Positions 24,181 through 49,770 of a DNA stretch of 64,000 nucleotides are shown piece by piece. The position numbers and the translations under genes are program-made. This stretch comes from Candidatus Sungbacteria bacterium RIFCSPLOWO2_01_FULL_47_32. GTDB lineage: Bacteria > Patescibacteriota > Minisyncoccia > Sungbacterales > GWA2-42-14. The notes under the pieces were generated by a model that was not told the DNA's origin, did no database searches, and was given only the letters and a program-made list of their open reading frames with translations. Positions within the stretch are counted from its first letter, which is position 1. Each line of letters opens with the position of its first letter. The stretch is taken from NCBI GenBank assembly GCA_001820685.1, contig MHQP01000033.1, forward strand, positions 42 through 64,041, written 5' to 3'.

Positions 24181-24290
24181 CCCCGTTAGAAACTCGCTTC
24201 AAAAACTTGCCAGAGAGCGCCGAGCTATATATCAGCTTCGCAAACCTATGTTCGTTTTAGAGAACTTCGCCGGTAAGCTCCTAACGGGGA
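24181..24290. repeat. Palindromic intergenic element: CCCCGTTAG...(~90 nt)...CTAACGGGG, a member of the dispersed CCCNTTAGAAG box family
   Basis: Perfect 9-bp inverted arms at 24181-24189 and 24281-24289 in the 132-bp gap between two same-strand glycosylation genes. The CCCCGTTAGAA core is the same as the elements at 42.5, 47.2 and 49.6 kb. Confidence 0.5.
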
Positions 24291-24299
24291 TTAAAAAAA

Positions 24300-25043
24300 T
24301 TACTGCTGATGTTGTTCTCCCTCGGAAAAATGCTTGATTGCCTTGTTCCACCGCTCGAAGGTTCCGCAATCAAAAAAGAATCCCTCTCCCTTGAAACCGG
24401 TAAGAAGCCCGCGAGACGCAAGGTGCGGAAAAAGGTCGCGCTCTATCATAAGGAATTTTTCCTGCGTCGGAACATGCAGGAGTGCTTCCGGTGAAACAAC
24501 ATACAATCCGGACGATACAAATGACGTAGGAGGATCTTTTGGCTTCTCGAGAAACATTGCGATCTTTGGCCCCTTCATTACGGCAACCCCGTAGTCAGAC
24601 GGATTTTCTACGGATACAAGGGCCACAGTCGCAAGCCCTCCGTTCGTTTTATGGAATTCAAAAAGTTTTTTCAAGTCAACCCGTTTCACTTCATCGGCAT
24701 TCGTAACAAATACCGGCTCTTTGCCAATCCATTCTTTCAGGTTATGGAAAACGTAGCCGAGAGTTCCCATCGGTTCCGGCTCGATGTCAAAAGAAATTGA
24801 AATATTCCCAAGCCCCGCCTCAAAACGCTTCCGCCACCACGAAAAGTCCTCGTAGTCGGCTTCCCTGATGACTACTTTAATATCGGTAACGCCGTGCTCC
24901 CGGAAAAGCTCAATGAGATAATTCAAAATCGGCTTTTTCTTCACGCTCAAAAGAGGCTTTGGCGTTTCAAGCGTTACCGGATACAGCCGGGTTCCTTTCC
25001 CGCCTGCAATTATGATAGCTTTTTTAGGGGTTTTTGCTCCCAT
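24300..25043 (-). CDS. Sugar-phosphate nucleotidyltransferase (NDP-sugar pyrophosphorylase)
   Basis: KAIIIAGGKGTRLYPVTLETPKPLL is the NTP_transferase G-x-G-T-R motif. Confidence 0.75.
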   Translation of the reverse strand: MGAKTPKKAIIIAGGKGTRLYPVTLETPKPLLSVKKKPILNYLIELFREHGVTDIKVVIREADYEDFSWWRKRFEAGLGNISISFDIEPEPMGTLGYVFHNLKEWIGKEPVFVTNADEVKRVDLKKLFEFHKTNGGLATVALVSVENPSDYGVAVMKGPKIAMFLEKPKDPPTSFVSSGLYVVSPEALLHVPTQEKFLMIERDLFPHLASRGLLTGFKGEGFFFDCGTFERWNKAIKHFSEGEQHQQ

Positions 25044-27435
25044 GTTTCTTTGCCGAATAATTCTCAAAAAGGCCGATAAGTCCTTTCATCATGCGCTCTT
25101 TTGAGAACTCACGGGCGCGCTCTTTTCCATGCTCCCTTAGCTTTTTATATACTCCTGCGTCCGAAAAAATCAACCGCACCGCGTCCCGTATCGCCCGCGA
25201 ATCGTTGAAGGGCACAAGGATGCCGTTCTCCATGTCCGTAATGATCTCCGGGTTCCCGCCGACATCCGTCGTGATAACGGGAATTCCCGCGCTTTGCGCC
25301 TCGATTATCTGGTGCGAAAATCCTTCATAGCTCGTATTCAAAATAAAAACATCGGAAGCTTTCAGATATTTCATAATATCGGCCTTCGAACGCTTCCCGA
25401 TTATTGTTACGGCATTCTCCGCTTCCCGCTCTATGATGGCGCGCTGGAGGCGGAAGTAGTCGGGGCCGTCGCCGACGATAATAACATGCGCCCAGTTGTA
25501 TGTTTTTGTAAGGTCGGAAGCAAGATAAATGAGCGTTTCAAACCCCTTCCACAAAACGAGTCTTCCAATGGAAAGAATTATCTTTTCTTCCTCCGGGATG
25601 CCGAGCTCACGCCGTATCTCTTCTTTTGACTCGGGTATGTCAACCGGTTCAACCGCGTTAAAAATGACGGAAATATTTTCATCCGGAATACGCCACCCGG
25701 AAACGATGCGCTTCAAATACTGCGACGGAACAAGAACGCGGTCCGCGTTTCCGCACACGTGTGCCTCAACAAAGCGGAGTAGCTCGACCAAAAACCGGTA
25801 GTGGCGTATCTGGAACACGTCAATCGCGTCTTCAACGCCGAAACGCGTAACCCCCTGTTCCCACGCATAGTCTCCCGTTACTTTGACGATATATTTTTTC
25901 CTTAGGATACGCGCGGCGCACAGCGCGGGGAATCCCGCCGAAACAGGGTCCTGGGCAAAAAAGATATCGCAGTGCAGTCCCGCCGTGACACACTTCAGAA
26001 AATAAAGAAAATGACGGATGCCTTTCGGAATTTTCCGTGAAATGAAATATGTCCGGTATCGGATTTTGCGGATACCGCCGTCTTTTGCGTCGCCCCAAAG
26101 TACCTCCGCATCGCGATAGGAAATAAGGCGCACAAAGAAACGCCGCCGCTCAAGTTCTCCTGCCACAAGCCGTGAGTACGTCGCGGGGCCTCCGATATCA
26201 GGCGGAAATATGCCGGTTACGACAAGGACGCGCGGCTTTGCGCTTTTCTCAAGTTCCGCTGAAAATATTTTCAAAAGACTCTTTGAAATGGCTTCCCAGT
26301 CATAGCGCGCCGTTGCCAGTTTCTTTGCTTCGTTCACGAGGAGAGTTTTCAGAGATTCATCCGTAAAGACTTTCAGTATCTTTTGAGCGAGGTCTTCGGG
26401 ATCGTCAACGCTCGTAAAAAGACCTGTTACTCCGTCCTTTAGAAAATCGGGAATGCCGCCGACAGGAGTCCCGATAATGGGAACACCAGCCGCCATTGCC
26501 TCAATAAAAGAATTTCCGAGGCCCTCCGAGCGCGAAGGCCGCACAAAGACATTCGCTATTTTAAGATAGTCCGGCAAATGTTCGTGCGAAACGGAGCCGG
26601 CAAATATGACATCATCAAGCACTCCGAGAGCCTTGGCAAGGCTTTTTATTGCCTGTGCTTCCTGGCCGGAACCAAGCACCAAAAATTTCAGGTTAAGCTC
26701 CGGGTTTGCTTTTTTTATCAGAGCAAGAGCCGCAACGATGGTGTCAATTCCGTTCTTTAACACAAGGCGCGAAGCGGTAATAATAATCTTCTCAAAACCC
26801 CTAAGTCCGAGCCTCCGCAAAATCTCTTCGGAGCGTTCTGCCGACGTCGAACGCGCAAAGTTTTTAAGGTCTACTCCGTTCGGAACAACCTCCCCCGGCC
26901 CTTTATAGTTTAAACGATACGCAAGGTCCAAAAGATACGCCGAAATGGCAGTCACATAGTCGCATTGTTTTAAGGCATATCTGAAACCGAGGATATGAAC
27001 AAGTCCGAGACGAGATTTTCGAAGATGCTCTTCGGTATCCCCCTCCTGAAGGGTCAGAATGTATGGGACGCGCGGAAAGAAAAACTTCAACGTGCTTGCC
27101 GCGATGGAACCGTAGGACGCCATGACCACCCAGAATATCTTCTTTCGGCCTTTGAAGCGGCGCCATAAAAAAAGAACGGCAAAAAAAGCCGTGAACGGAA
27201 GGAGGAACTTATCCCATGCTTTCCCGAGCCCGAGGCGCATGATGGTAATATTTTCCTTCGTTTCTTTTTTTGGAAGTTCGGGCGCGAAACGGCTTGTCAG
27301 GACAACAAAATCAAACTCTCCGCCAAGGCGTTTTGCGTTTTCGTGAATTGCAATTTCGGCTCCCCCAATGAACGGATCGTAAGCCGTTGTGAACACGAAA
27401 ATAACCGATTTTCCTGTAGTATTTTCCAAAGCCAA
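25024..27435 (-). CDS. Tandem double glycosyltransferase (GT4-GT4 fusion, 803 aa)
   Basis: Two complete GT4 units. The first ends RPSRSEGLGNSFIEAMAAGVPIIGTPVGGIPD and the second ends NTSYEGFSHQIIEAQSAGIPVITTDVGGNPE. Each is preceded by its own GT4 N-domain (IGGAEIAIHE and DIGGPATYSRL). Confidence 0.8.
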   Translation of the reverse strand: MALENTTGKSVIFVFTTAYDPFIGGAEIAIHENAKRLGGEFDFVVLTSRFAPELPKKETKENITIMRLGLGKAWDKFLLPFTAFFAVLFLWRRFKGRKKIFWVVMASYGSIAASTLKFFFPRVPYILTLQEGDTEEHLRKSRLGLVHILGFRYALKQCDYVTAISAYLLDLAYRLNYKGPGEVVPNGVDLKNFARSTSAERSEEILRRLGLRGFEKIIITASRLVLKNGIDTIVAALALIKKANPELNLKFLVLGSGQEAQAIKSLAKALGVLDDVIFAGSVSHEHLPDYLKIANVFVRPSRSEGLGNSFIEAMAAGVPIIGTPVGGIPDFLKDGVTGLFTSVDDPEDLAQKILKVFTDESLKTLLVNEAKKLATARYDWEAISKSLLKIFSAELEKSAKPRVLVVTGIFPPDIGGPATYSRLVAGELERRRFFVRLISYRDAEVLWGDAKDGGIRKIRYRTYFISRKIPKGIRHFLYFLKCVTAGLHCDIFFAQDPVSAGFPALCAARILRKKYIVKVTGDYAWEQGVTRFGVEDAIDVFQIRHYRFLVELLRFVEAHVCGNADRVLVPSQYLKRIVSGWRIPDENISVIFNAVEPVDIPESKEEIRRELGIPEEEKIILSIGRLVLWKGFETLIYLASDLTKTYNWAHVIIVGDGPDYFRLQRAIIEREAENAVTIIGKRSKADIMKYLKASDVFILNTSYEGFSHQIIEAQSAGIPVITTDVGGNPEIITDMENGILVPFNDSRAIRDAVRLIFSDAGVYKKLREHGKERAREFSKERMMKGLIGLFENYSAKKHGSKNP

Positions 27436-27551
27436 CAGGTGAATAGTATCACAAACATAGCGCTTTTTAAAGAAGACGGAAAATATTTTGCCAGATACAT
27501 ATTAAAAAACGCCGCAGTATGCGCGGCGTCAAATCAGCTATCCTATAGCAT

Positions 27552-27588
27552 AAAAAAAAACCGCAAGGAAAGATTTGGTTTCCTGCGG
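27552..27588 (-). terminator. Rho-independent terminator directly after the stop of the P-loop-CYTH gene
   Basis: On the minus strand CCGCAGGAAACCAAATCTTTCCTTGCGG is followed by T9. Confidence 0.6.
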
Positions 27589-27590
27589 CG

Positions 27591-28749
27591 CTAGTTTCTT
27601 TTCTTCGCAAGACTTTTCATCGAATATCGCGAATCTCCGGTAACTTCCTTTATCACTTCAATAAAGGGCGGAATGAAAACACGGTCGTTTTCCTCCGTAA
27701 GCTCTATTTCGAGAACGGCAACCGGACCTCGCGACTCTGCGTACTCTCCATCCTCCTCAAGCAATCGGATAAGACGGGAATATGTCGGCTCCTCGAGCAC
27801 ATCGAGCTCGAAGTATTGGCCTTTCCACAAAAAACAGCTGCGGATTTTTTTTCACGACGTCCGAATCGGGATCTTTTTCGCTCTTAAGCAATTGTGCGTA
27901 GTCCTGAGGCCGAATCATGTGTTCATCCTCATGCTTGACACCTTTTCGAATATTCTTTTTTCGAGTTTCATAGTACGCGTAGTATCCGTCGCTTCCCCTC
28001 TTTCTGATACGATGCGAGCCTTCTTTGTCCGAACGAAGCTCTACCTGCTCAATATCAGCAGGTACAACAACAAACCCGTGAGCAAACAGAGGCATCTTCA
28101 CGATGAACTTGCGTTCTATCTCAAGAGGAATGGGGGTTCCGAGCACACTGCAAATGCCCTTAAGGAGGCGGGAAATTTTCTCGTCAAATCCGGTGCTGTT
28201 ATCGACAACCTGAACATGGTTTGCGCCAACCCAGGAATCCAGCGTCCGCCGGTCAAGGACAATTGCCTCCTCAACAGTTTCTTTCCGTGCGGAATTATTT
28301 TTTTTCGTATAGAACTCCGGAGCGCCAAGGGCCGCCGTCACAAGATGATGCACGCTTTTATACCGCAAGAGCAGTTCCATCTTTTTAAGCCCCATCTCCC
28401 TAATAAGCTTTTCAAATTTCCCCGGAGGCAGATACGCGGCATTGTCACAACATTCGCGGTCAGTAAGAACAATGCACTTCGGGTTTTTAAAGCGCCTTGC
28501 CATTTCAAGATAGCGATTTTCACGCTCAAGCTGCATTAAGAGCGCCTGCCTTTGAAAATCCTTGAGTGAGAGACCTGTCCCGCCGATGGAAACTCCATTC
28601 GTGAAAAGTTCCGTTGCAACTTCTGGAGGTGTCAGAACCGAGTATCCGAAGTCGCTCAAACGCTCAACAATTTTTGCCCTGCCGGTTGATTTGCCCCCGC
28701 ACGGGCCGCCAGTCAATGCATGGAGCGTAACTTCTTTCGCGTCCGCCAT
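27591..28749 (-). pseudogene. P-loop NTPase (AAA_28/NadR-like) fused to a CYTH domain, broken by a 1-nt frameshift between 27832 and 27853
   Basis: ORF 27757..28749 has the Walker A motif GGPCGGKST and the CYTH signature EIERKF. The CYTH fold continues in another frame as ORF 27591..27830 (WKGQYFELDVLEEP...LEIELTEEN). Removing one base from either the A8 or the T6 homopolymer on the minus strand joins the two frames. Confidence 0.5.
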
Positions 28750-28884
28750 TGCTTACCGTAGTATTTATAATTCAAGTTGCTGGGAAAATAGTACCATACT
28801 TACACGTGCTTTTGTCAATTGTTTGCTCCTATATTCGCCCCTGCCACCGCGTCAGCTACTGCGGAGTATTCCAGACAAACAGTG

Positions 28885-28913
28885 AAAAAACCGTCCAGCT
28901 TTTAGCGGGACGG
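28885..28913 (-). terminator. Rho-independent terminator immediately after the stop at 28914
   Basis: On the minus strand CCGTCCCGCTAAAAGCTGGACGG is followed by TTTTTT. Confidence 0.55.
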
Positions 28914-29522
28914 CTATATTTTGCGCGAGCCCCGAACATGGCCCATTCGGCTGTTTTTTGCGTGTTTTCTGAATGTTATTTTTATGCCTGTTTTTTTGTG
29001 CACCCACCTCCGGAATCGGGAAACAACTCTTCGGGAATACGGGAATTTTCTGAAAAGTTTGACGAGAAGGAATCGGAGAAAGTTAAACTCGCGGAGAAGT
29101 ATGATGAACCCGGGAATACATGCCATCCACGCGCCAAAAACCGGAATGAAAATAGCTGTCGGCGAAAGAACGATGAGAAGAACAGCCGAACAAATGCGCA
29201 CGGCGCGAAAACCCCAAAGCCACTTCATAAATGCCCTGAAAGCCAGAGCCGCGCGCGAGTTCCAAAGCCACTTCACGAACGCCGCGAAAGCCTGGGCCGC
29301 TCGGGAGTTCTGAAGCTCTTTAAAGAATACTGCGAAAATAAGAACCGTTCGAGAATTCAAAAGCCGTTTTAGCACGACATATCCCGGTCCGAATGTTGTC
29401 GCGTCCGCATATCCGCAAAACCCTCTGCACGAAGAACTAGAGAAGTCTATAGCATTAGACAGCACTAAAATCAAACAAAAAACGGAGCATGATTGCTCCG
29501 CAGGAAAATTATGGGTTCGCAT
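28914..29522 (-). CDS. Membrane protein with 16-aa Trp-rich amphipathic repeats (NSRAAxAFxAFxKWLW)
   Basis: Hydrophobic segments at both ends and a central repeat array encoded by degenerate 48-bp tandem DNA repeats. The terminator sits directly after its stop. Overlapping plus-strand ORFs look spurious. Confidence 0.4.
   Translation of the reverse strand: MRTHNFPAEQSCSVFCLILVLSNAIDFSSSSCRGFCGYADATTFGPGYVVLKRLLNSRTVLIFAVFFKELQNSRAAQAFAAFVKWLWNSRAALAFRAFMKWLWGFRAVRICSAVLLIVLSPTAIFIPVFGAWMACIPGFIILLREFNFLRFLLVKLFRKFPYSRRVVSRFRRWVHKKTGIKITFRKHAKNSRMGHVRGSRKI
29215..29358. repeat. Three degenerate tandem 48-bp repeats (~77% identity between units 1 and 2), inside coding sequence
   Basis: Unit 1 (29215-29262) is CAAAGCCACTTCATAAATGCCCTGAAAGCCAGAGCCGCGCGCGAGTTC. 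Unit 2 is CAAAGCCACTTCACGAACGCCGCGAAAGCCTGGGCCGCTCGGGAGTTC. Unit 3 is more diverged. Confidence 0.6.
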
Positions 29523-30303
29523 CCGCTTCTTGAAGAAGCTCGAGCACTACAAGACGCACGAGGGCCCCGGCAATGCCACCCAAAACCGCAAAGAATAGAA
29601 TGAAGGCAAGGCTGTTCGGAACCGCCAAGAACGTGAGCGTTCCGAAAACCATTGAATACGCACTGCATGCCGTGAACATTTCGGAGTGAACAAACTTAAG
29701 AAAAAGCCGTGTGAACTTCAAGGTAGTGCGGGCAAAAAATGAGAAATTTTTCACAAACAGCACAATCCCCTTAAGCGGATAGTAACCTGCAAGAATGTGA
29801 ATTGAAATAAAATTGAAATAAGTGAATCCCTTTTTTGCCAATTGCACATCTTCTTTCGACGGAGGAGGAGACAAACATGTAGCAACCAAAAAACCCACGG
29901 TAGTAGCCACGGCATGAACAAGAAATACGGTAACAGCCACCCTATAAAGAAGGTCGGATGGCATTTTATATCCCAGCAATACTTGAATAAGAAGTATAAC
30001 AGTAAGGACGAGTCCAAACATTCCTGCTAGGGATACTGCGACACAAAAACCGTACATCACCCTCTGCTTGAATTGGTATTTCGGAAGACCTTCAGCAACC
30101 GCTCTCCACGCCATTTCCGCGGCAGACGCAACGCGCTTCGGTTCGGTCAAAAGACGAGCCAAATACCCAACGGCCCCGCCAACAACGATGCCAAGCGGCC
30201 AATAAATACCCAGTGCATGCGCAAACATAACACCCAAAAAAATACCTGTCGCAATAGCGAATGCATCTTTTTTAAGGTCGTTCATGGTCTTCCCGGTATT
30301 CAA
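29509..30303 (-). CDS. Hypothetical polytopic membrane protein (264 aa)
   Basis: 6-7 predicted TM helices. No recognisable family. Confidence 0.5.
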   Translation of the reverse strand: MNTGKTMNDLKKDAFAIATGIFLGVMFAHALGIYWPLGIVVGGAVGYLARLLTEPKRVASAAEMAWRAVAEGLPKYQFKQRVMYGFCVAVSLAGMFGLVLTVILLIQVLLGYKMPSDLLYRVAVTVFLVHAVATTVGFLVATCLSPPPSKEDVQLAKKGFTYFNFISIHILAGYYPLKGIVLFVKNFSFFARTTLKFTRLFLKFVHSEMFTACSAYSMVFGTLTFLAVPNSLAFILFFAVLGGIAGALVRLVVLELLQEADANP

Positions 30304-30376
30304 CTGTCAATGGACAACATTGTTATCGTAGTATATTGTATAAGTATTATCAAGGGCCTTAACATAAAAGCGCTCC

Positions 30377-31054
30377 TTATGAGCGCTTCATTTTTTCTAA
30401 AAATTCTTCTCCGTGTCCATAGTCGGTGTTGATAGGGCGAAGACTTTTGCACAACGGGCAATCTTCCTTTTTCCAGCTTTCGAATTGTTTTTCGATAAGC
30501 GAAAAGAGGGGTACCGCCCCAATGTCATATGACTGAATACTGCTTCTGGTCCAAAGACACGCCGCCCCTAAAACATTCCCGCCGAGATTTCGCACCAGGC
30601 CCGAAAGATTCCTGAAGGCAATGCCAGTCGTTACAACATCATCAACCAAAAAAACATTTTTTTGCGCGATGTATTTTTTGAACGCCTCGGGAATAGTAAA
30701 AGGATTCTTTTGACTCGCCGAACTTTTTTCTGCCCAGGTGAAATAGATCTTCCGCGAAACGGCTTTTGACATATGTTCGGCAAACCTCATGGCAGGAGGA
30801 ATTCCGCCGACTGCCGGAGCGAGAATGACTTCCGCCTGTTTCCTGAAGCCTGAATCAAGCACCATTTCGGAGAGATAAAACATGAGCGTTGAAAGCTCTT
30901 CTCCGTCAGCACAGAGCGCATCCCCCAGCACATATTCACTGCCATGCCGACCCGAATTATAGACGTAGTGCCCGTTTTCGAGAATCGCCCCGCTCTTTCT
31001 GAACACAGAGAGCGCAAACTCTTCAACATTCTTCCGGCGGACGTCAGTTACCAT
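30377..31054 (-). CDS. Phosphoribosyltransferase (type I PRTase fold)
   Basis: The PRPP-binding motif VFLVDDVVTTGIAF, with a C-terminal CPLC. The probable start is MVTDVRR at 31054; the track ORF begins at 31138. Confidence 0.65.
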   Translation of the reverse strand: MVTDVRRKNVEEFALSVFRKSGAILENGHYVYNSGRHGSEYVLGDALCADGEELSTLMFYLSEMVLDSGFRKQAEVILAPAVGGIPPAMRFAEHMSKAVSRKIYFTWAEKSSASQKNPFTIPEAFKKYIAQKNVFLVDDVVTTGIAFRNLSGLVRNLGGNVLGAACLWTRSSIQSYDIGAVPLFSLIEKQFESWKKEDCPLCKSLRPINTDYGHGEEFLEKMKRS

Positions 31055-31236
31055 ATCCCCTCCGCGTATCGAATAGGTGTTGGAAAAGACCGAACGGCTC
31101 CAGTATAACCGTTTTGCGGAAAAAATCCAGTGAAACAAAAACTAAGCTATACTACTCAAGCCAGCGCCTCCTTGCCCCAGTGGCGAGGCATGGTATAGTG
31201 ATAAAAAGATTTTTGAGAATTGAGAACCGGCCGCCA

Positions 31237-32133
31237 ATGCGCCAATCGGGAAAAAGACCCGGCATTTTGAAGCGTATCGCCCGAAGAGAGTTCCTAATAA
31301 GCGTCCAGCTGGACCCGCCGTCCCCGGGCATGTTCCCGAAATTTAATGATTCGCTGAAAAAACTCCGGAGGGCAGGCGTGAAAGTATTCGACGTAAACTC
31401 ATCGCGAAGAATATGCCATGACTCCATACAGCTTGCTTCGGAACTTTGCGGAACCTCCGCCGACGTTATCGCGCACATTACGACGCGCGACAGCTCCGTA
31501 AACGGCCTTTTAAACCAGATACTTGCCGCGTACGAATGGAGCGACCTTAAGAATTTTCTTGTTATCACGGGAGACCCGTACGAATCCAAACAGGCGGTAT
31601 TCCCGTCGCGCGGCGTTTTCCAAACAGATTCCATCGGAGCGCTAAAAGCTATCGACTGGCAATTCCGAAAGAACCTTGCCCGCCCCTTAAACATTGTCCT
31701 TGCGGCAGCCGTCAACCAGAACGAACATGACAGGGCAAAAGAAGGAAAGCGCATTGAAGAAAAGATCGCGGCAGGAACGGATATTTTCATGAGCCAGCCT
31801 GTGTTTGATAGCGTCCAGGCCGATGAACTTTTTAAATTTTATGGAGAGCATTCGGCGCGCCCTCTTTTCGTCGGAGTATGGCCAACGCTGAATCTCAAAA
31901 CCATTGAGAACATCAGAGCCGGCTCCGTTGAAGGAGTCCGGCTTCCGAGAAAAGAGTATTCGGAACTTATTTCAAGTTTTACCGACGAAAACGAGTTGCG
32001 TCGCAAGAGCGCTGAACGAACGATCGGACTTGTCAGGCACATCCGAAGTTCAGGAAAAGCAACCGGCATCTATATTGTGGCACCCTCGCGAAATCCCCTC
32101 TTGCTCCTTCCGATCCTAAAAGAACTTCTCTAG
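31237..32133 (+). CDS. Methylenetetrahydrofolate reductase family protein (MetF-like)
   Basis: ISVQLDPPSPG, HITTRDSS, LVITGDPYE and AAAVNQNEH parallel the MTHFR motifs (VSxEFFPPK, ITCRD, LALRGDPP). The probable start is MRQSGK at 31237. Confidence 0.65.
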   Translation: MRQSGKRPGILKRIARREFLISVQLDPPSPGMFPKFNDSLKKLRRAGVKVFDVNSSRRICHDSIQLASELCGTSADVIAHITTRDSSVNGLLNQILAAYEWSDLKNFLVITGDPYESKQAVFPSRGVFQTDSIGALKAIDWQFRKNLARPLNIVLAAAVNQNEHDRAKEGKRIEEKIAAGTDIFMSQPVFDSVQADELFKFYGEHSARPLFVGVWPTLNLKTIENIRAGSVEGVRLPRKEYSELISSFTDENELRRKSAERTIGLVRHIRSSGKATGIYIVAPSRNPLLLLPILKELL

Positions 32134-32145
32134 TTCGTAATCACG

Positions 32146-32176
32146 AACCGCCCGGTCTCAACCAGGCGGTTTTTAT
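32146..32176 (+). terminator. Rho-independent terminator
   Basis: ACCGCC-loop-GGCGGT followed by TTTTTATG. Confidence 0.45.
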
Positions 32177-32197
32177 GTGCAGAAAAATCTTCTTGGT

Positions 32198-32226
32198 TTG
32201 CAACCGCACCCAAAAACAGCTATAGT
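32198..32226 (+). promoter_or_regulatory. Sigma70-like promoter (TTGCAA-17-TATAGT) upstream of the DUF4382 gene
   Basis: Good hexamers with exact 17-bp spacing, ~85 bp upstream of the ATG at 32311. Confidence 0.4.
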
Positions 32227-32310
32227 AGGATATGTAATAACTACTTAATATTGCTTGGAAATTAGCCGAAAATGTAACCCCATTTAGGCAAATTCCACAT
32301 CACCTTTAGC

Positions 32311-33294
32311 ATGAAAAAAATCATTATCATATCCGCAGTCGTCGTCCTTGTAGTTCTTGTGGGCTTTTTCTTCTATTCGAAGCCGGCCATGAGCCCGACA
32401 ACGACAGAAAACACGGGACAACCGGGGATAACGCCGGCAATTCCCGGGGCAACGCCTCCTCCCGCCTCGGCCCCTGTTATGGGCAAAGGAAGGGTGGTAT
32501 TTGCGGTGACTGATGCCGCCATCGGACTTGAGAACTATGACTCAATAATTTTGAGCATTTCGGAAGTCCGTGTAAGCAGTCAATCGAAAGGATGGGTGAC
32601 GCTTTCCGAAGAGAAAAAGCAGTTCGACCTTTTAGCTCTTAAGCGTTCCGGCTCTATCGCCCTTCTTGCCGACGTAACGGTAGCGGCAGGAAATTATAAT
32701 CAACTGCGGCTTGCCATCGATAAAGTTACTGTTGTCGCAAAAGACGGAACGACCGCCGAAGCAAAACTTCCTTCCAAAGACTTAAAAATGGTGGGAACGC
32801 TTGTTGTGAACGACGGACAAACGTCAAGCGCTTCGTTCGACTTCCTTGCGGATAAATCTCTCCACCAAACGGGTTCCGGCCAGCTTATTTTCGCCCCCGT
32901 TATAAAAGTTGAGACTCGAAACAACGTCGGAGTAACCCTTACTTCAAACCTTGTTACATTCACCGAAGGAGCCGTCAACACGAACCTGACATTTGGAATG
33001 GACGAATCGGGGCAAACAACAGTCGGCGGAGGTGTTGACGCAAAAGCATCACTTGATGTCGTTGGAGACACCATCCATATCGTCTCGAAAGGAGAGGCGG
33101 ATGCGGGCGTCAAAATTACCGCAAAGGGCGCGGTGGACAAAGCGGTCGGCGAAGGATACCTGACGAACGCTCTCTCCGTAAAAACCGTAACGCGTGAAGG
33201 GAAAAAAGTATGGCTTGTGATAGGACTGAAAGGACTTGATATAAAAAATATCTACATCGACGTAACGACGGGAAATGTAGTCGCTGTTGAATAA
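32311..33294 (+). CDS. DUF4382-family secreted/membrane-anchored protein
   Basis: N-terminal TM/signal anchor, a Pro/Thr linker, then VVFAVTDAAI...ILSISEVRV...GWVTL...QFDLLAL...AGNYNQLRLAI, which matches the DUF4382 pattern. Confidence 0.65.
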   Translation: MKKIIIISAVVVLVVLVGFFFYSKPAMSPTTTENTGQPGITPAIPGATPPPASAPVMGKGRVVFAVTDAAIGLENYDSIILSISEVRVSSQSKGWVTLSEEKKQFDLLALKRSGSIALLADVTVAAGNYNQLRLAIDKVTVVAKDGTTAEAKLPSKDLKMVGTLVVNDGQTSSASFDFLADKSLHQTGSGQLIFAPVIKVETRNNVGVTLTSNLVTFTEGAVNTNLTFGMDESGQTTVGGGVDAKASLDVVGDTIHIVSKGEADAGVKITAKGAVDKAVGEGYLTNALSVKTVTREGKKVWLVIGLKGLDIKNIYIDVTTGNVVAVE

Positions 33295-33310
33295 TCGGAA
33301 CAGAATATAA

Positions 33311-33346
33311 AAACAGCCCCGCTTTTAGCGGGGCTGTTTTTTCTTG
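33311..33346 (+). terminator. Rho-independent terminator
   Basis: AAACAGCCCCGC-TTTTA-GCGGGGCTGTTT followed by a T-run. Confidence 0.6.
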
Positions 33347-33372
33347 CTTTTCACAGAAACAAATGGTATATT
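33344..33372 (+). promoter_or_regulatory. Sigma70-like promoter (TTGCTT-17-TATATT) for the exonuclease gene
   Basis: Hexamers at 33344-33349 and 33367-33372. Confidence 0.45.
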
Positions 33373-33404
33373 CATAAAAAGTTTTTTAAAAACAGAAAGA
33401 AGCC

Positions 33405-34037
33405 ATGCCGCAGAAAGTCCGGTCTTTTCTTTTTCTTGACATTGAAACAACGGGAAACGAACCGCTCCGGCTTGTCAACGGCAGTCTTTCGGCGTGGCAC
33501 GAGATAATCGAGATCGGCGGAGTTGTTGCGAGACAAGGTGATCTTTCACCACTGCAGATGTTTAATATCAAAGTTCACCCGGAACATCTGGAGCACGGAG
33601 ACGAAGACGCCTGGAAAATAAATGGCTACCCGAGGCGTGCTGCCGCCGGAGAATGGGATAGAGCTCTTTCGCTCAAAGAAGCTATCGGAACGCTTCTTCG
33701 CTTTATACAGGAAGATGGCGGACCGGTATTGCTTGTCGGGCATAACTTCTTTTTTGACTGGACGTTCATCGTCATTGCTTTGGCGCTTGCCGGCATACAG
33801 GAAGCGGAGTTGGCTAGCTACGTTCACTATACAAAACTCGATACCCGCTCAATGGCGGTCGGCACACTTTTAAAGCCGGGTGAGTTGTATGATCCCGGAG
33901 ACTACAGCATCAGAAATAACAAAATAGCCAAACTTCTCGGCATCCCTCCGGAACCATATCCTCACCAAGCGCTCGGAGGAGCAAAACAGTCATATTTCAT
34001 CTTCAAAAAACTGCTTGAACTGAAAGGCGGACAGTAA
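33405..34037 (+). CDS. DnaQ-like 3'-5' exonuclease (DEDDh family)
   Basis: Exo I FLFLDIETTG, Exo II LVGHNFFFDWTFI, and Exo III H-x4-D region YPHQALGGAKQSYFIF. Confidence 0.8.
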   Translation: MPQKVRSFLFLDIETTGNEPLRLVNGSLSAWHEIIEIGGVVARQGDLSPLQMFNIKVHPEHLEHGDEDAWKINGYPRRAAAGEWDRALSLKEAIGTLLRFIQEDGGPVLLVGHNFFFDWTFIVIALALAGIQEAELASYVHYTKLDTRSMAVGTLLKPGELYDPGDYSIRNNKIAKLLGIPPEPYPHQALGGAKQSYFIFKKLLELKGGQ

Positions 34038-34051
34038 ATCCGCAAATAAGA

Positions 34052-34076
34052 AAAGCCCCATTGGGGCTTTTTTAAT
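34052..34076. terminator. Terminator hairpin AGCCCCA-TTG-GGGCT followed by TTTTTAATTT
   Basis: Lies between convergent genes. Confidence 0.5.
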
Positions 34077-34079
34077 TTA

Positions 34080-34361
34080 CTAGCGGCCGTATTTTAGCGT
34101 ATACCATATCTTTATCGTAATCGCCAAAGAAAAAAGAACGGACGGCAGAAGCCACAAGAAATTATGTTTTAGATAGAGAACGGTAATACCATGCTGGCTT
34201 GTGAGATAATTATACCACCTCCAGTCTCCCATAGCTGGAAAAAGCCATGATGAGTTAAAATATAGATCAGTCTGAATCGCAAGAAATGTGAGCCCTGAAA
34301 AAAAGAGAAGACATCCGAGAAACAGTATGGCGTGTTTCACTCGTAACCAGCTCATTTTCAA
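34080..34361 (-). CDS. Small hypothetical membrane protein (93 aa, 3 TM)
   Basis: Hydrophobic helices. Sits downstream of 34441..35319 in the same orientation. Confidence 0.4.
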   Translation of the reverse strand: MKMSWLRVKHAILFLGCLLFFSGLTFLAIQTDLYFNSSWLFPAMGDWRWYNYLTSQHGITVLYLKHNFLWLLPSVLFSLAITIKIWYTLKYGR

Positions 34362-34440
34362 ATTACATTTTAAAAAAGTACCACCGAACTCATGGCCTTG
34401 TCAAGCCAAAATTAAAGAACCCGAAACGGGTTCCTGCTCT

Positions 34441-35319
34441 TTACACGTCTTCCAGCGTCTTGAAAAGCTCCGTTGGAAGTATGGTGATTTCACAAGCAGT
34501 GCACTTTATTTTTCCAACATCGTCCCCGCCCTGAATAACAATGAGCGAGTTTTCCGGATGACCGTTTTTACACGAATCCGAGGAAAGTCCCGCCAGACGA
34601 AGCGACGCAAGCGCTCGCAGGTTGACCTCATCAGAATACTCCGCGTCGGCCCGAATAGAGTCTTGCTCATACTCCACGCCGAATGAAAGAAGGTAATTTT
34701 CATGCGCACCGAAATATGCGATTTCGCCCGGGGGCATGGAGGCTCCGGCTTTACCTGACGAAAGCGGTTCTCCCCACCGTTCGTACGAAAGCGGATATAA
34801 AACCTGGTGTGGAACCTCTTCTCCATCCTTCGTGAATACTTTGAAAGTGCCGTCGGAACCGTTGTCGAGTTCAAGAAGGACAAGCTCCGTTCCGGGAGGG
34901 CTGTCAAGAACCTTAATAAAAGGAGAATTATCAAACAGAGCTGGCCGCTCGCCTCGGTCAGCGCACAAAAGAGCTTCTTCATAATCGCTATCGTTATACT
35001 CAAAAGGCCTAAGATACTGCGAACGGACAACAATTTTAACCGTCTCTGAATCGACGGCCGCAATATCTTCACGCTCAACAATTGAGACAACATCTCCCGC
35101 CCCATCAATGATTGTAACAATGCCGTCAGGTTCAATACGGACTCGATTGCCTTTTCTTCCGTGGTTCAAAAATTCCCGACTCCAGACACCAATCCCGCCG
35201 AAGCACGCCCCCCCTCCGCGGCAGGAGTTAGGATGAAAGCGCAGAGTACCGTAGAGAGATATTGCGCCGCCTTTTTCTGCATGGGAATTCTTTAGAAATT
35301 CGAGGCCGATTGACTGCAT
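34441..35319 (-). CDS. Hypothetical protein (292 aa)
   Basis: Clean ORF with a strong upstream promoter. No recognisable family. Confidence 0.5.
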   Translation of the reverse strand: MQSIGLEFLKNSHAEKGGAISLYGTLRFHPNSCRGGGACFGGIGVWSREFLNHGRKGNRVRIEPDGIVTIIDGAGDVVSIVEREDIAAVDSETVKIVVRSQYLRPFEYNDSDYEEALLCADRGERPALFDNSPFIKVLDSPPGTELVLLELDNGSDGTFKVFTKDGEEVPHQVLYPLSYERWGEPLSSGKAGASMPPGEIAYFGAHENYLLSFGVEYEQDSIRADAEYSDEVNLRALASLRLAGLSSDSCKNGHPENSLIVIQGGDDVGKIKCTACEITILPTELFKTLEDV

Positions 35320-35357
35320 GGCGCCCTCTCAATATTTTCAGAGAACATAATAAACTT

Positions 35358-37071: not shown

Positions 37072-37098
37072 GCTGGCCTCAACCAAGAGTTAAATGTT

Positions 37099-47571: not shown

Positions 47572-48444
47572 TTAGTGCAAATTATAAAGATGCTCCCGCA
47601 ACCCCTTCCCAACATCGGGATGCCGCAGACCAAAATCAACAACCGCTTTCAGAAGTCCGAGTTTGTCTCCGCAGTCATAGCGCGTTCCCTCAAATTCATA
47701 GCCGTATATCTTTTTGCCGTGTTTGAGCATTTTTTTAAACGCTTCAGTAAGTTCAAGTTCTTTTCCCGATTTATATTCCAGTCGCGATAATTCATAAAAG
47801 ACATCCGGAGTTAATATGTATTTGCCCACAATAGAAAGATCCGATGGCGCATCTTTCACGGCAGGTTTTTCAACGACGGCGTTTATGCGATATGTCCTGG
47901 TAGCAACTTTTTTTGCGTTGACAATCCCATATTTATAAACTTGTTCCATGGGAACCCTTTCAAGAGCAAATATGGGTGCCTTATATTTTTTAAAAGCGAC
48001 AATAAGCTGTTTAAGACACGGTGTCTTTGAATAAACGACGTCGTCTCCAAAAAGCACAGCGACAGGTTCATCTTTTATGAGATGAAATGCCTGAAGAAGA
48101 GCATCGCCGTTCCCGCGCGGTTCTTTTTGCCGCACGAACGCAAAATTCGCGAGAGAAGAAATTTTCCGTATCTCACGCGCAAGTTCATGCTTGCCTCGTT
48201 TCTCGAGAAAGTATTCGAGTTCAGCGGCGTTATCAAAATGGTCCTCAATAGCACGCTTGCCCCTTCCCGTTACAAAAATAATCTCATTTATTCCCGAAGC
48301 AACCGCTTCTTCAACGAGATATTGAATAACCGGCTTATCAACAATCGGAAGCATCTCCTTTGGCTGTGCTTTTGTCGCAGGAAGAAAGCGGGTTCCAAAA
48401 CCCGCAACCGGAATTATAACCTTTTTTATGTTGAGATTAGCCAA
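47572..48444 (-). CDS. galU: UTP--glucose-1-phosphate uridylyltransferase
   Basis: KVIIPVAGFGTRFLPATKAQPKEMLPIVDKPVIQYLVEEA is the canonical GalU N-terminus. The length (290 aa) is typical. Confidence 0.9.
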   Translation of the reverse strand: MANLNIKKVIIPVAGFGTRFLPATKAQPKEMLPIVDKPVIQYLVEEAVASGINEIIFVTGRGKRAIEDHFDNAAELEYFLEKRGKHELAREIRKISSLANFAFVRQKEPRGNGDALLQAFHLIKDEPVAVLFGDDVVYSKTPCLKQLIVAFKKYKAPIFALERVPMEQVYKYGIVNAKKVATRTYRINAVVEKPAVKDAPSDLSIVGKYILTPDVFYELSRLEYKSGKELELTEAFKKMLKHGKKIYGYEFEGTRYDCGDKLGLLKAVVDFGLRHPDVGKGLREHLYNLH

Positions 48445-48550
48445 GGTGTTTTACGAGGCACCACCGCTGAACAAGTCTATTTTGTTTGGACAGCAGGCAT
48501 ACCAACCTATTATCTCTACTAGATAGCTGATACCAGGTATATGCGAAAAA

Positions 48551-48595
48551 TGTCGCTTTGTCGTTTATAAGATGTCGTTTAATGGCTGTCGCTTA
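48551..48595. repeat. Four direct repeats TGTCG(C/T)TT(T/A), the last three phased at 14 bp, upstream of galU
   Basis: Repeats at 48551, 48559, 48573 and 48587. Confidence 0.3.
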
Positions 48596-48686
48596 TCCTA
48601 TTAGATGCTTAAAACAGAGTAATTTATAGCGCAATGTCTTTTGAACGATACCAACCTAACTCCAGATAAAATCATCAGAAGAAATG

Positions 48687-49541
48687 CCTCTAATGGGGTT
48701 TATATCTTTATCCTGTAAACAGCCCATCTTTTGTCACCCTCCTTTTCAATGGCATTTTGGCTAATAAGAGAGGCCAAATCCCGCTGGAGAGTCTTAATGC
48801 TGAATCTATTGGCAAATATACCGGTAAGGTCAGTAGACCGAACCTGTTGATTTGAGCGAATATGGTCGAGAATTGTCTTCTGCCGGTCATTAAAAAATTC
48901 GCTTGCTGATATGCGCTTTTCTATTCCATTTCTGTCGCTCTCCTGCATTTCTTCCTCTCTTATTGGTTCATGGCCAATTTCTACAATATTAGTGCTCCTT
49001 TTGGCGTCCTTCTTGATCTGTATAGCACTTTTCCGTTCTGTTCTTACCTGCCTTACAACATGCGGCGTATTAAGTAGCGGCTTTATGGCGATGGGCGCTT
49101 TTTGCTCAATTTTTGCTTCATTTATAAGTCCATTTGCTTCTTCCACGGCATAGTTAAATTCGCGCTCAAAAAAATTAGAAAAAAAACTATATTCCCTATC
49201 AAGAACCATAATATTAACCGGCTTTACCATACTGCTGAAACGAGCGATGCTTAGAAGGGAGCGGACTGCCTGAATTTTTGCGAGAACAGAGGAAATTGCC
49301 TCCGCCTTCTTATAGGCAGTACCGTGTTCCAGAACGGAAGACATTATTTCGTTTGCCTTTTCCCTGACCTGTCGTTTTAAAACCTCACTTTCCGGGAATA
49401 GGTCGGTTACCCTGTAGACGGCGAGGGTAAGTTCGAATATTTTTCGGTTCATTTCACTTGTCATGGTTTTTTGATAGTTAAGAGACAACACACCTCCTGA
49501 GTTTATAAAAATAAGCCAAGACCTGTCAACCCCATTAGAGG
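48687..49541. mobile_element. Cassette bounded by perfect 14-bp inverted repeats (CCTCTAATGGGGTT ... AACCCCATTAGAGG) enclosing the four-helix-bundle/wHTH gene
   Basis: The left arm at 48687-48700 overlaps the gene stop. The right arm at 49528-49541 lies 37 bp upstream of the start. A third arm-like copy CCTCTAGTGGGGT sits at 49745-49757. Confidence 0.35.
48700..49491 (-). CDS. Four-helix-bundle protein (23S-rRNA-IVS-protein family) with C-terminal winged-helix DNA-binding domain
   Basis: N-terminal KIFELTLAVYRVTDLFPESEVLKRQVREKANEIMSSVLEHG ... AISSVLAKIQAVRSLLSIAR resembles the TIGR02436 four-helix-bundle proteins. C-terminal QKTILDHIRSNQQVRSTDLTGIF...SIKTLQRDLASLISQNAIEK is HTH-like. Confidence 0.6.
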   Translation of the reverse strand: MLSLNYQKTMTSEMNRKIFELTLAVYRVTDLFPESEVLKRQVREKANEIMSSVLEHGTAYKKAEAISSVLAKIQAVRSLLSIARFSSMVKPVNIMVLDREYSFFSNFFEREFNYAVEEANGLINEAKIEQKAPIAIKPLLNTPHVVRQVRTERKSAIQIKKDAKRSTNIVEIGHEPIREEEMQESDRNGIEKRISASEFFNDRQKTILDHIRSNQQVRSTDLTGIFANRFSIKTLQRDLASLISQNAIEKEGDKRWAVYRIKI

Positions 49542-49589
49542 TTTAAAATTCTTCATACTTGTTCAAACCATTGTAAGACGAAGGCAGCT

Positions 49590-49706
49590 TCGTCCCGTTA
49601 GAAGTTCAGCCGAGACCGACCTAAAGCAAACATTATAACGCGAAATCGCCTTCGGCTGGAGTTAACACAATCACAGCAAGTCAGTCCATAACTTCTAACG
49701 GGACTT
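49590..49706. repeat. Long palindromic element: GTCCCGTTAGAAGTT (49592-49606) pairs perfectly with AACTTCTAACGGGAC (49690-49704)
   Basis: The 15-bp perfect inverted arms also hold a nested CAGCCGA/TCGGCTG stem and a GCGAAATCGC mini-hairpin that is conserved (GCGAAGTCGC) in the 42.6-kb copy. Confidence 0.5.
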
Positions 49707-49770
49707 CGCCTATTGTTTTCTCTCACAAGAAATGCGTGGGCGACCTCTAGTGGGGTCAACTCTATACCCC

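What the first reader, a model, noticed from the sequence alone, without database searches (positions are those of the whole stretch)
24181..49758. Dispersed family of palindromic elements built on a CCC(C)(A/G)TTAGA(A/G)G box
I find the same core at least nine times, always in intergenic DNA and usually as inverted pairs 80-110 nt apart. The pairs are 24181/24281, 42483/42520, 42592/42687, 47188/47288 and 49592/49690. The last pair has perfect 15-bp arms. Some copies share internal features: the mini-hairpin GCGAA(A/G)TCGC and the segment TTC(A/G)GCCGAG / TTCGGCTTAG. Single boxes also flank a gene at 48687, 49528 and 49745. The elements look like a REP/BIME- or MITE-like repeat family, or a family of structured small RNAs. 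I do not recognise them as a described element.
Basis: seen in the sequence. Interest (0 to 1): 0.65.

Follow-up and report, generated by a model that had tools for sequence, protein, structure and literature searches.

The report
Tiny jumping-DNA family across Patescibacteria
The repeated boxes are the inverted ends of about 105-base, non-coding mobile DNA elements (MITEs); the same ends occur in MAGs of many ultra-small "CPR" (Patescibacteria) lineages, where copies often sit exactly at start codons, stop codons or promoter -35 boxes and rebuild those signals.

Summary
The box CCCCRTTAGARG is strongly enriched: 11 hits against 0.8 expected. All boxes resolve into seven units with inverted termini. 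Five are 103-111 nt long, one is a 44-nt mini form, and one (E) is nested inside another (F).

The family is not specific to this genome. The same pattern found nothing in viral contigs.

The copies behave as miniature inverted-repeat transposable elements:
- They have 13-15-bp terminal inverted repeats, YCCCGTTAGAAGTT...AACTTCTAACGGGR.
- They have 4-nt (rarely 5-nt) target-site duplications at TSAA-type sites. 65 of 157 are perfect, against about 7 expected.
- They show a nested insertion and filled versus empty orthologous sites.
- One copy is an in-frame insertion inside a gene.

About a third of copies abut a start codon, which the duplication plus the element's last base rebuilds as ATG or GTG. 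Another 24 abut the TTGAC of promoter-like sites.

Internal structure is minimal, and the long class has no orientation bias relative to neighbouring genes. The structured small-RNA and REP/BIME readings therefore fail.

I found no autonomous copy or transposase. An IS1380/piggyBac-like enzyme is an untested lead. I found no Rfam family and no paper covering these elements.

The parts
24181..24289 (.). Element A, 109 nt. Ends are C-CCCGTTAGAAAC ... GCTCCTAACGGG-G. It lies between an NTP-transferase gene and a GT4 glycosyltransferase gene, 13 nt upstream of the latter's ATG (24167). The target duplication has decayed (TTCA / ATTA).
   Evidence: It is a weak match to the family HMM (E = 1.7).
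42483..42526 (.). Element B, a 44-nt mini form: CCCCGTTAGAG ... inner hairpin GGTTAC/GTAACC ... TCAACGGGG. Comparable mini forms occur elsewhere (L042 1390-1416, L092 6377-6404, L095 738-776).
42592..42700 (+). Element C, 109 nt, long class. It carries the core GCGAAGTCGCCTAACGGCTT and lies between two terminator-like hairpins of the minus strand.
   Evidence: (E = 1e-16)
47189..47299 (+). Element D, 111 nt, long class. Its left end abuts TCAA. On the minus strand this reads GGGG|TTGACT-17 nt-TACCCT, a promoter-like site.
   Evidence: (E = 3.5e-12)
48596..48698 (.). Element G, 103 nt, with a degenerate left box (T-CCTATTAGATG). Its right end abuts TTTA, which on the minus strand is TAAA and contains the TAA stop codon of the 254-aa gene. 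The flanks CTTA / TTTA match at 3 of 4 positions.
49530..49755 (-). Element F, 226 nt as found. Without E and one copy of CTTCG it is 110 nt. Its core orientation is opposite to that of C, D and E.
   Evidence: (the left half matches model positions 48-108 on the minus strand)
49593..49703 (+). Element E, 111 nt, with perfect 15-bp arms. It is inserted into the core motif of F and is the youngest-looking copy.
   Evidence: (E = 1.5e-15)
49588..49592 (.). Left copy of E's 5-nt target-site duplication, CTTCG.
49704..49708 (.). Right copy of E's 5-nt target-site duplication, CTTCG.
49526..49529 (.). Left copy of F's 4-nt target-site duplication, TCAA. On the minus strand it is TTGA, part of the -35 hexamer TTGACA.
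49756..49759 (.). Right copy of F's 4-nt target-site duplication, TCAA.
49500..49529 (-). Promoter-like site TTGACA-18 nt-TAAACT (or TTGACA-16 nt-TATAAA) directly abutting F. It lies upstream of the 254-aa gene (ATG at 49464).
   Evidence: best-scoring promoter-like site of the region, 10 of 12 matches

Best explanation
[quoted passage not shown] These are non-coding DNA transposons, mostly 98-112 nt long, with the form Y-CCCGTTAGAAGTT ... AACTTCTAACGGG-R.

Proposed mechanism:
1. A transposase encoded elsewhere recognises the 13-15-bp ends. It may also recognise the internal CTAACGG-like core. This step is inferred, and the enzyme was not found.
2. The element integrates at TSAA-type tetranucleotides (TGAA, TTGA/TCAA, TAAA) with a 4-nt, rarely 5-nt, staggered cut. 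The resulting target-site duplication is shown.
3. These tetranucleotides coincide with start codons (A|TGAA), stop codons (TGA-A, TAA-A) and -35 boxes (TTGAC). The element ends in a purine. An insertion therefore leaves the stop codon or -35 box intact and rebuilds an ATG or GTG next to the gene. This is shown.
4. In genomes with almost no intergenic DNA, such insertions are the ones that survive. This is inferred.

When transcribed, an element would add a hairpin closed by a 13-15-bp stem. A regulatory effect is possible but not shown.

The family is spread through Patescibacteria (CPR). The window, from a groundwater Sungbacteria-like MAG, carries seven copies.
For: Enrichment and pairing of the boxes in the window.

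Almost all are in Patescibacteria MAGs. The same pattern gave 0 matches in IMG/VR viral contigs.

Target-site duplication:
- Direct-repeat identity peaks at positions -5..-2 against +2..+5 (0.61-0.68).
- A perfect 4-nt duplication occurs in 65 of 157 copies, against 7.2 expected when flanks are re-paired.
- A register scan shows a single sharp peak at 4 nt with a 1-nt inset, plus 10 copies with 5 nt.

Nested insertion: E lies inside F with a CTTCG duplication, and F is restored to the family length of 110 nt once E is removed.

Filled versus empty sites:
- The rpsF-ssb junction is filled in L037, L100, L067 and L095, and empty in L096 and L109.
- The window's F/E and G sites are empty in the syntenic loci L128 and L129.
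- A 99-nt element in L130/L131 lies in frame inside the orthologous gene. It adds 35 residues (PVRS...TSNG) that P0002, P0004, P0006 and the window protein lack.

Start codons:
- About 50 copies abut an ORF of at least 60 codons at offset 0.
- ATGAAC|element|GTGAAC cases show that the last base of the element supplies the first base of the start codon.

Promoters: 22 of 24 RTTGAC flanks are followed by TANNNT at 16-18 nt, against 11% for all TTGAC in the same DNA.

Recent intragenomic spread: near-identical copies occur within one MAG (L041, L050).
Against: - No autonomous element or transposase with these ends was found. In 0.94 Mb of loci all boxes pair at about 100 nt, and the Pfam-annotated window genes (roughly 1,400-62,500) include no transposase. 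Mobility is therefore inferred from its footprints only.
- About 40% of copies have no recognisable duplication.
- The very high conservation of the ends across deep lineages, and recurrent occupation of the same junction (the ssb start), could also reflect selection for a host function rather than pure selfish spread.
- The short class (98-103 nt) shows an orientation bias towards the adjacent gene (20 to 4). A purely neutral insertion model does not predict this.
- The collection scan required the canonical ends, so conservation of the ends is partly a result of how copies were found.
Confidence: 0.85

Rival explanations
1. The elements are a family of structured small RNAs or cis-regulatory RNA motifs. 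On this reading they act at the RNA level through a conserved fold.
For: - The terminal repeats would form a 13-15-bp stem in any transcript.
- One 3-bp hairpin (GCC-TNAC-GGC) shows compensatory variants GAC/GTC, GGC/GCC and ACC/GGT.
- A subset can pair CAGCCGA with TCGGCTG, with AGCCA/TGGCT variants.
- Many copies directly precede a start codon.
Against: - The RNAalifold consensus is only the terminal stem plus one 3-bp hairpin, at -4.2 kcal/mol.
- The interior has z of about -0.7 against shuffles.
- The more stable strand splits 31 to 40.
- Long-class copies lie in either orientation relative to the neighbouring gene (14 to 10 and 11 to 8).
- There is no Rfam match.
- Window copies F/E and C lie between a terminator and the next promoter.
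- Target duplications, the nested insertion and the translated in-frame copy are not expected for an RNA gene.
Confidence: 0.04
2. The elements are REP/BIME- or REPIN-type repeats, spread by a single-copy RAYT (Y1/HUH) transposase.
For: - The copies are dispersed, intergenic and palindrome-ended.
- They come as inverted pairs about 100 nt apart.
- No autonomous copy was found, as for REPINs.
Against: - The 12-13-nt box is not itself a palindrome and has no GTAG head.
- The copies carry 4-nt target duplications, which HUH/Y1 transposition does not make.
- No Y1-transposase family appears among the Pfam-annotated genes of the window.
Confidence: 0.04
3. The elements are domesticated modules. They arose as MITEs, but many copies are now kept for a host function at gene boundaries. 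Candidate functions are a hairpin that insulates or stabilises transcripts, or, in the short class, a portable promoter and start codon. This is compatible with the main explanation rather than exclusive of it.
For: - The ends are conserved across hosts of 27-59% G+C.
- The ssb start codon is occupied in four MAGs by copies of different subfamilies.
- The short class is oriented towards the gene 20 to 4.
- Some short-class copies carry an in-frame ATG 18 nt before the end (ATGAAAACTTCTAACGGG|GTG) or a TATAAC/TAGTAT box near the end.
Against: - No expression data are available.
- Syntenic relatives lack the window's copies.
- Long-class orientation is random.
- The upstream-ORF coupling idea failed, with only 5 of 31 cases reaching the downstream start.
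- Target preference plus purifying selection explains the positions without any host function.
Confidence: 0.25

Closest known systems
Bacterial MITEs such as Neisseria Correia elements and enterobacterial ERIC/IRU (from my own knowledge of the literature)
   Same: - Size of about 100-150 bp, with terminal inverted repeats and short target-site duplications.
- No coding capacity and many dispersed copies.
- Location next to genes.
- Hairpin formation when co-transcribed.
- Ends that interact with promoter signals at the insertion site.
   Different: - The terminal sequence is different.
- The duplication is 4 nt at TSAA-type sites rather than TA.
- The family is shared across many Patescibacteria lineages rather than one genus or family.
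- Insertions sit exactly at start or stop codons and rebuild an RTG start.
- No parent IS is known.
piggyBac / IS1380 superfamily of DDE transposons
   Same: - Ends begin CCC and finish GGG.
- Both make a 4-nt duplication at an A/T-rich tetranucleotide. For piggyBac this is TTAA, and its TIRs start CCC/GGG (PMC10140906).
- IS1380 is the prokaryotic relative of piggyBac (PMC10140906).
- From memory, IS1380 elements have CC ends and 4-5-bp duplications, and the piggyBac end CCCTAGAAAG resembles CCCGTTAGAAG.
   Different: - No transposase of this or any other family was found next to these ends.
- The target is TSAA rather than TTAA.
- The resemblance of the ends is short.
- This is a lead, not a membership claim.
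REP/BIME and REPIN-RAYT systems
   Same: Both are abundant, short, intergenic, palindrome-forming repeats without their own transposase inside.
   Different: The elements here have target duplications, non-palindromic 13-nt ends and no associated RAYT gene.
TIGR-Tas stem-loop arrays of CPR bacteria and phages (PMC12045711)
   Same: Both are hairpin-flanked units of similar size found in CPR genomes.
   Different: The elements here are dispersed and not tandem. They have no box C or box D motifs, no dual spacers, and no Nop-domain Tas gene nearby.

Membership tests
MITE (miniature inverted-repeat transposable element) | Small size (tens to a few hundred bp) and no coding capacity | tested here: met
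   Copies are 98-118 nt, with mini forms of 27-44 nt. They are too short for a transposase.
MITE (miniature inverted-repeat transposable element) | Terminal inverted repeats | tested here: met
   The ends are 13-15 bp, YCCCGTTAGAAGTT / AACTTCTAACGGGR. E has perfect 15-bp arms.
MITE (miniature inverted-repeat transposable element) | Target-site duplication of fixed length | tested here: met
   A perfect 4-nt duplication occurs in 65 of 157 copies, against 7.2 expected. There is a single sharp register peak, and 10 copies have 5 nt.
MITE (miniature inverted-repeat transposable element) | Multiple dispersed copies per genome | tested here: met
   The window has 7 copies in 64 kb. Several MAGs have 3-5 separate hit blocks. 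The loci hold 38 further copies beyond the 119 stretches that brought them in, across 0.94 Mb.
MITE (miniature inverted-repeat transposable element) | Insertion polymorphism (filled versus empty orthologous sites, nested insertions) | tested here: met
   - rpsF-ssb junction.
- Syntenic ClpB / 254-aa / NTP-transferase loci.
- In-frame intragenic copy.
- E nested within F.
MITE (miniature inverted-repeat transposable element) | A related autonomous IS with the same ends that supplies the transposase | tested here: inconclusive
   None was found in 0.94 Mb of loci or in the window. Whole genomes could not be searched.
IS1380 / piggyBac-derived element | CC(C)...(G)GG termini and a 4-5-bp duplication | tested here: met
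   for the elements. The family features come from PMC10140906 and from memory.
IS1380 / piggyBac-derived element | A DDE/DDD transposase of that family bounded by the same ends | not testable with these tools
REP/BIME (REPIN-RAYT) | The unit is a 20-40-nt imperfect palindrome with a conserved GTAG head, makes no target duplication, and is associated with a RAYT gene | tested here: not met
   The box is not palindromic. Target duplications are present. No Y1 transposase appears among the Pfam-annotated window genes.
Structured non-coding RNA family | A conserved fold supported by covariation, strand-specific conservation, and a consistent orientation to transcription | tested here: not met
   There is no Rfam family.
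Integron attC sites | R''(RYYYAAC)...R'(GTTRRRY) with AAC/GTT at the inner end of the R boxes, arranged in arrays next to intI | tested here: not met
   Here GTT and AAC lie at the outer side (CCC-GTTAGAAG...CTTCTAAC-GGG). The copies are dispersed. No integrase appears among the Pfam-annotated window genes.
TIGR stem-loop array | [quoted passage not shown] | tested here: not met
   No such motifs are conserved in the alignment. The copies are dispersed. No Nop-domain gene is present. The definition is taken from PMC12045711.

The most novel reading that the evidence does not exclude
These elements may be more than ordinary selfish MITEs. They could be one half of a Patescibacteria-wide system in which a conserved, still unidentified enzyme places them specifically at gene boundaries: start codons of leaderless or tightly coupled genes, stop codons, and -35 boxes. 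The enzyme might be a single-copy, piggyBac/IS1380-like transposase capable of seamless excision. The element ends would have evolved to rebuild the start codon. Reversible insertion would then act as a genome-wide way of rewiring or switching gene expression in organisms that have very few conventional regulators.
Probability: 0.12. Interest if true: 0.85.

Novelty: new member of a known kind. Interest (0 to 1): 0.55.

Why it matters
Patescibacteria (CPR) genomes are small and tightly packed, and are generally regarded as poor in mobile DNA. A MITE family with near-identical ends in MAGs labelled as many different candidate lineages, at roughly 40-110 copies per Mb in the sampled DNA, points to one of two things. 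Either a conserved mobilising enzyme exists in the group, or DNA is exchanged frequently within it.

The insertion sites are informative in their own right. They mark start codons that have no Shine-Dalgarno sequence and sit 6-8 nt after a -10 box, or that overlap the previous stop codon. They also mark real -35 boxes.

The elements are therefore natural probes of how these uncultivated organisms start transcription and translation. They show that a gene can tolerate 100 nt of hairpin DNA placed directly before its start codon. They are also convenient markers for strain-level population genomics, and a source of protein insertions (the in-frame copy).

Tried and rejected
- **Rfam.** I searched the whole window at gathering thresholds, ten canonical loci at gathering thresholds, and the region 42.3-49.9 kb at E up to 10. 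No family covers the elements.
- **tRNA or tmRNA.** None found.
- **Autonomous copies.** I looked for box pairs more than 150 nt apart and for unpaired boxes in 0.94 Mb. The only candidate was L047 304-1819. It encloses an ORF I judged by eye, without a profile search, to be a TrmB-like regulator and not a transposase.
- **A gene repeatedly linked to the elements.** All-against-all clustering of 1,779 ORFs gave only syntenic housekeeping genes, including rpsF-ssb, a type IV pilus ATPase and an aminoacyl-tRNA synthetase (named by eye from the translations, no profile search).
- **Translational coupling through an upstream ORF that spans the element.** Only 5 of 31 cases reach the downstream start.
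- **In-frame read-through as the general rule.** Element lengths show no excess of multiples of three.
- **Strand-specific folding.** Not found.
- **Viral carriers.** 0 matches in IMG/VR.
- **Close relatives of the window genome for strain-level empty sites.** The eight contigs that encode the identical ClpB have the same spacing, so all carry the same copies. The nearest other homologues of the 254-aa protein are at most 53% identical.
- **Literature.** Searches for the terminal sequence, and for CPR or Patescibacteria with MITE, leaderless, IS1380 or palindromic repeats, gave nothing relevant.
- **Integron attC and TIGR-Tas stem-loop arrays.** Considered and rejected (see the membership test).
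- **Weak box pair at 62207-62410.** The box overlaps the stop codon of an ORF. I regard it as chance.


Full report
**1. The observation**

The box is real and far above chance.
- CCCRTTAGARG occurs 5 times exactly, against 0.09 expected.
- CCCCRTTAGARG with at most one mismatch occurs 11 times, against 0.8 expected. No shuffle out of 100 reaches 11.

Shuffled sequence gives 0-2 pairs.

Reading the sequence resolves all boxes into seven units:

| Unit | Coordinates | Length (nt) |
|---|---|---|
| A | 24181-24289 | 109 |
| B | 42483-42526 | 44 |
| C | 42592-42700 | 109 |
| D | 47189-47299 | 111 |
| G | 48596-48698 | 103 |
| F | 49530-49755 | 226 |
| E | 49593-49703 | 111 |

The 'single boxes' are not single. 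48687 is the right end of G, whose left box has decayed. 49528 and 49745 are the ends of F. F contains E, which has perfect 15-bp arms. Removing E and one copy of its flanking CTTCG leaves F at 110 nt, the family length.

All copies are intergenic, in a run of minus-strand genes: glycosyltransferases, a TPR protein, a 1219-aa peptidoglycan-binding protein, two NTP-transferases, a 254-aa protein and ClpB.

**2. Where the window comes from**

The ClpB protein is encoded identically on Rifle groundwater metagenome contigs and in the MAGs GCA_001003045.1 and GCA_001822325.1. Homologues of the 254-aa protein are named Candidatus Sungbacteria. The host is therefore a Patescibacteria (CPR) bacterium.

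**3. The family is not genome-specific**

I scanned GTDB species genomes with TTAGAAGTT-N72-92-AACTTCTAAYRGG. From its information content I expected about 6 chance matches in 1.2e12 positions.

By record title, almost all hits are Patescibacteria MAGs. The names include Paceibacterota, Nomura-, Falkow-, Portnoy-, Azam-, Moran-, Doudna-, Kaiser-, Uhr-, Yonath-, Yanofsky-, Taga- and Staskawiczbacteria. Many are labelled Saccharibacteria.

Four contigs carry other labels. Three of them share 48-79% identical proteins with Patescibacteria loci, so they look mis-binned. Host G+C ranges from 27 to 59%. The same pattern has no match in 2.9 million viral contigs, which also serves as a control on the chance rate.

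**4. Anatomy**

I extracted 116 strict copies and then 157 copies with relaxed ends. Lengths cluster at 98-103 nt and 104-112 nt.

Each element is Y-CCCGTTAGAAGTT ... AACTTCTAACGGG-R. The outermost pair is C..G in 85 copies and T..A in 55.

The long class has this consensus:

CCCGTTAGAAGTTCAGCCGAG - about 30 nt - AAGCGAAnnCGCC-TNAC-GGCTT - about 35 nt - AAAACTTCTAACGGG

The short class has a degenerate second right end about 10 nt after the left end, followed by an A/T-rich body. Mini forms of 27-44 nt exist, including window B.

**5. Evidence that the elements are mobile DNA**

(a) *Target-site duplication.* Flank identity peaks at positions -5..-2 against +2..+5 (0.61-0.68) and falls off in shifted registers.
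- 65 of 157 copies have a perfect 4-nt duplication, against 7.2 expected when left and right flanks are re-paired at random.
- A scan of all lengths and insets gives one sharp peak, at 4 nt with a 1-nt inset. Ten copies have 5 nt, including window E.
- The targets are TCAA/TTGA (21), TGAA/TTCA (20), TAAA/TTTA (6) and TCCA/TGGA (5).

(b) *Nested insertion.* E lies in the core of F.

(c) *Filled and empty sites.*
- The rpsF-ssb junction carries an element at the ssb start codon in L037, L100, L067 and L095. The copies belong to different subfamilies. The junction is empty in L096 and L109.
- The syntenic ClpB / 250-aa / NTP-transferase loci L128 and L129 have no element where the window has F/E and G.

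(d) *An intragenic copy.* In L130 and L131 a 99-nt copy lies in frame inside the orthologue of the window's 254-aa gene. It is translated as PVRS...TSNG. It accounts for a 35-residue insertion shared by P0005 and P0003 and absent from P0002, P0004, P0006 and the window protein.

(e) *Recent spread.* Near-identical copies occur within one MAG (L041, L050).

**6. Where they land**

About 50 copies end exactly at the start codon of an ORF of at least 60 codons (...CTAACGGG|ATG). Usually the same ATGNNN lies on the other side of the element.

Cases such as ATGAAC|element|GTGAAC show that the first base of the rebuilt start codon is the last base of the element.

At the duplicated upstream copy:
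- 18 of 50 have a TANNNT box 4-10 nt upstream (36%, against 10% at random positions).
- 18 of 50 have an upstream ORF ending at the junction. In L037, for example, the rpsF stop TGA overlaps the ssb ATG.
- Only 3 have a Shine-Dalgarno-like motif.

The targets are therefore starts of leaderless or tightly coupled genes.

Another 24 copies abut RTTGAC. In 22 of them a TANNNT follows at 16-18 nt, against 11% for all TTGAC in the same DNA. These copies sit on real-looking -35 boxes.

In the window:
- F duplicates TCAA, which is the TTGA of the best promoter-like site of the region.
- D abuts TTGACT-17 nt-TACCCT.
- G abuts the TAA-A stop of the 254-aa gene.

On the minus strand, F/E lies between the ClpB terminator and that promoter. 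C lies between two terminators.

**7. What they are not**

- *Structured RNA.* RNAalifold on 72 long-class copies gives only the terminal stem, which is invariant partly because of how copies were found, and one 3-bp hairpin with a few compensatory variants. The total is -4.2 kcal/mol. The interior has z of about -0.7 against shuffles. The more stable strand splits 31 to 40. Orientation relative to the adjacent gene is unbiased: 14 to 10 at start codons and 11 to 8 at -35 boxes. There is no Rfam family.
- *REP/BIME.* The box is not a palindrome, the copies carry target duplications, and there is no RAYT gene.
- *attC sites and TIGR stem-loop arrays.* Both were considered and rejected (see the membership table).

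**8. How it most likely works**

Shown:
- The elements are non-coding and have inverted ends.
- They integrate with a 4-nt (rarely 5-nt) staggered duplication at TSAA-type sites.
- Insertions at A|TGAA, TGA-A, TAA-A and TTGA-C preserve the stop codon or -35 box and rebuild an RTG start.

Inferred:
- A DDE-type transposase encoded elsewhere binds the ends.
- The internal core, which often repeats CTAACGG in the orientation of the right end, may be a further binding site.
- In genomes with almost no spacer DNA, selection leaves mainly the insertions that keep these signals.

How a gene is translated with a 13-15-bp stem directly before its start codon is not established. Coupling through an upstream ORF was tested and rejected.

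The short class is oriented towards the gene (20 to 4). Some of its members carry a -10-like box or an in-frame ATG near the end. They may bring their own expression signals, but this is only a hint.

**9. The mobilising enzyme**

None was found, either in 0.94 Mb of loci or among the Pfam-annotated window genes.

CCC...GGG ends and a 4-nt duplication at an A/T-rich tetranucleotide recall piggyBac. PMC10140906 describes its TTAA target and CCC/GGG ends and names IS1380 as its prokaryotic relative. That IS1380 elements have CC ends and 4-5-bp duplications is from my memory only. I give this link about 0.25. It is a lead, not a test.

**10. Novelty and verdict**

I found no Rfam family, no paper containing the terminal sequence, and nothing relevant in the further literature searches.

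In kind this is a MITE family, so I class it as a new member of a known kind. Several features are unusual:
- Its spread across Patescibacteria lineages.
- The absence of a visible parent element.
- Systematic insertion at start codons, stop codons and -35 boxes, with the signals regenerated.

Confidence that the window features are copies of a mobile MITE family is 0.85. Interest is 0.55.

Noticed in passing
L037 3101-3216; L100 1784-1905; L067 (minus strand) around 1138-1236; L095 732-932; L096 3257; L109 3221: The rpsF-ssb junction is a recurrent landing site. Four MAGs carry an element exactly at the ssb start codon, from different subfamilies. L095 has a mini element plus a full one. Two MAGs have the empty junction. 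In L037 the rpsF stop TGA originally overlapped the ssb ATG.
   Followed up: yes
L130 6427-6525 (also L131 1141-1239): A 99-nt element lies in frame inside a protein-coding gene and is translated (PVRS...TSNG). It gives a 35-residue insertion in a low-complexity linker. P0003 shares it, with a diverged interior but conserved ends.
   Followed up: partly
window 48700-49464 (minus strand): The 254-aa protein has no Pfam hit and belongs to a conserved Sungbacteria-type family. The family has an invariant N-terminal block (KIFELTLAVYRVTD) and a C-terminal block (SIKTLQRDL...GDKRW). A few distant homologues carry PF08220 (from memory, a DeoR-type HTH). The gene always lies between ClpB and an NTP-transferase.
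   Followed up: partly
window 46448-47571; L128 6790-8280; L129 2441-3988; L131 2637-4004: An ORF-poor stretch of 1.1-1.5 kb lies between the NTP-transferase gene and the large peptidoglycan-binding protein gene. It is conserved in position in three species. There is no Rfam match. Element D lies inside it in the window.
   Followed up: partly
window 1-32000: A long run of cell-envelope glycosylation genes (GT4, GT2, PMT_2, epimerases, methyltransferases, NTP-transferases), nearly all on the minus strand. A small PDDEXK_3-domain ORF of 81 aa lies near 1,500-1,760.
   Followed up: no
L024 3386-3509: An Rfam LOOT RNA (RF03000, 76 bits) occurs in an Azambacteria contig, about 3 kb from an element. 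It looks unrelated to the elements.
   Followed up: no
L042 1390-1416; L092 6377-6404; L095 738-776; window 42483-42526: Mini forms of 27-44 nt consist of little more than the two ends. The L042 copy has its own TTCA duplication. They could be internal deletions or excision and repair products.
   Followed up: partly
L100 2482-2520: A tandem heptamer repeat (CCAGTTA, several copies) lies in a Yanofskybacteria contig. It was picked up as weak box matches.
   Followed up: no
L056, L062, L080, L103: These contigs carry canonical elements but are labelled Gammaproteobacteria or Azotimanducaceae. L080, L062 and L103 share 48-79% identical proteins with Patescibacteria loci, so they are probably mis-binned. 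L056 could not be checked.
   Followed up: partly
L011, L049, L091, L107 (right flanks): One long-class subfamily (CCCATTAGAAGTTCATTGAGA...) always continues with GCAGG(C/T) or GCAAGT after the right end. Its true end may therefore lie 5-6 nt further out, or it may have a different target.
   Followed up: no
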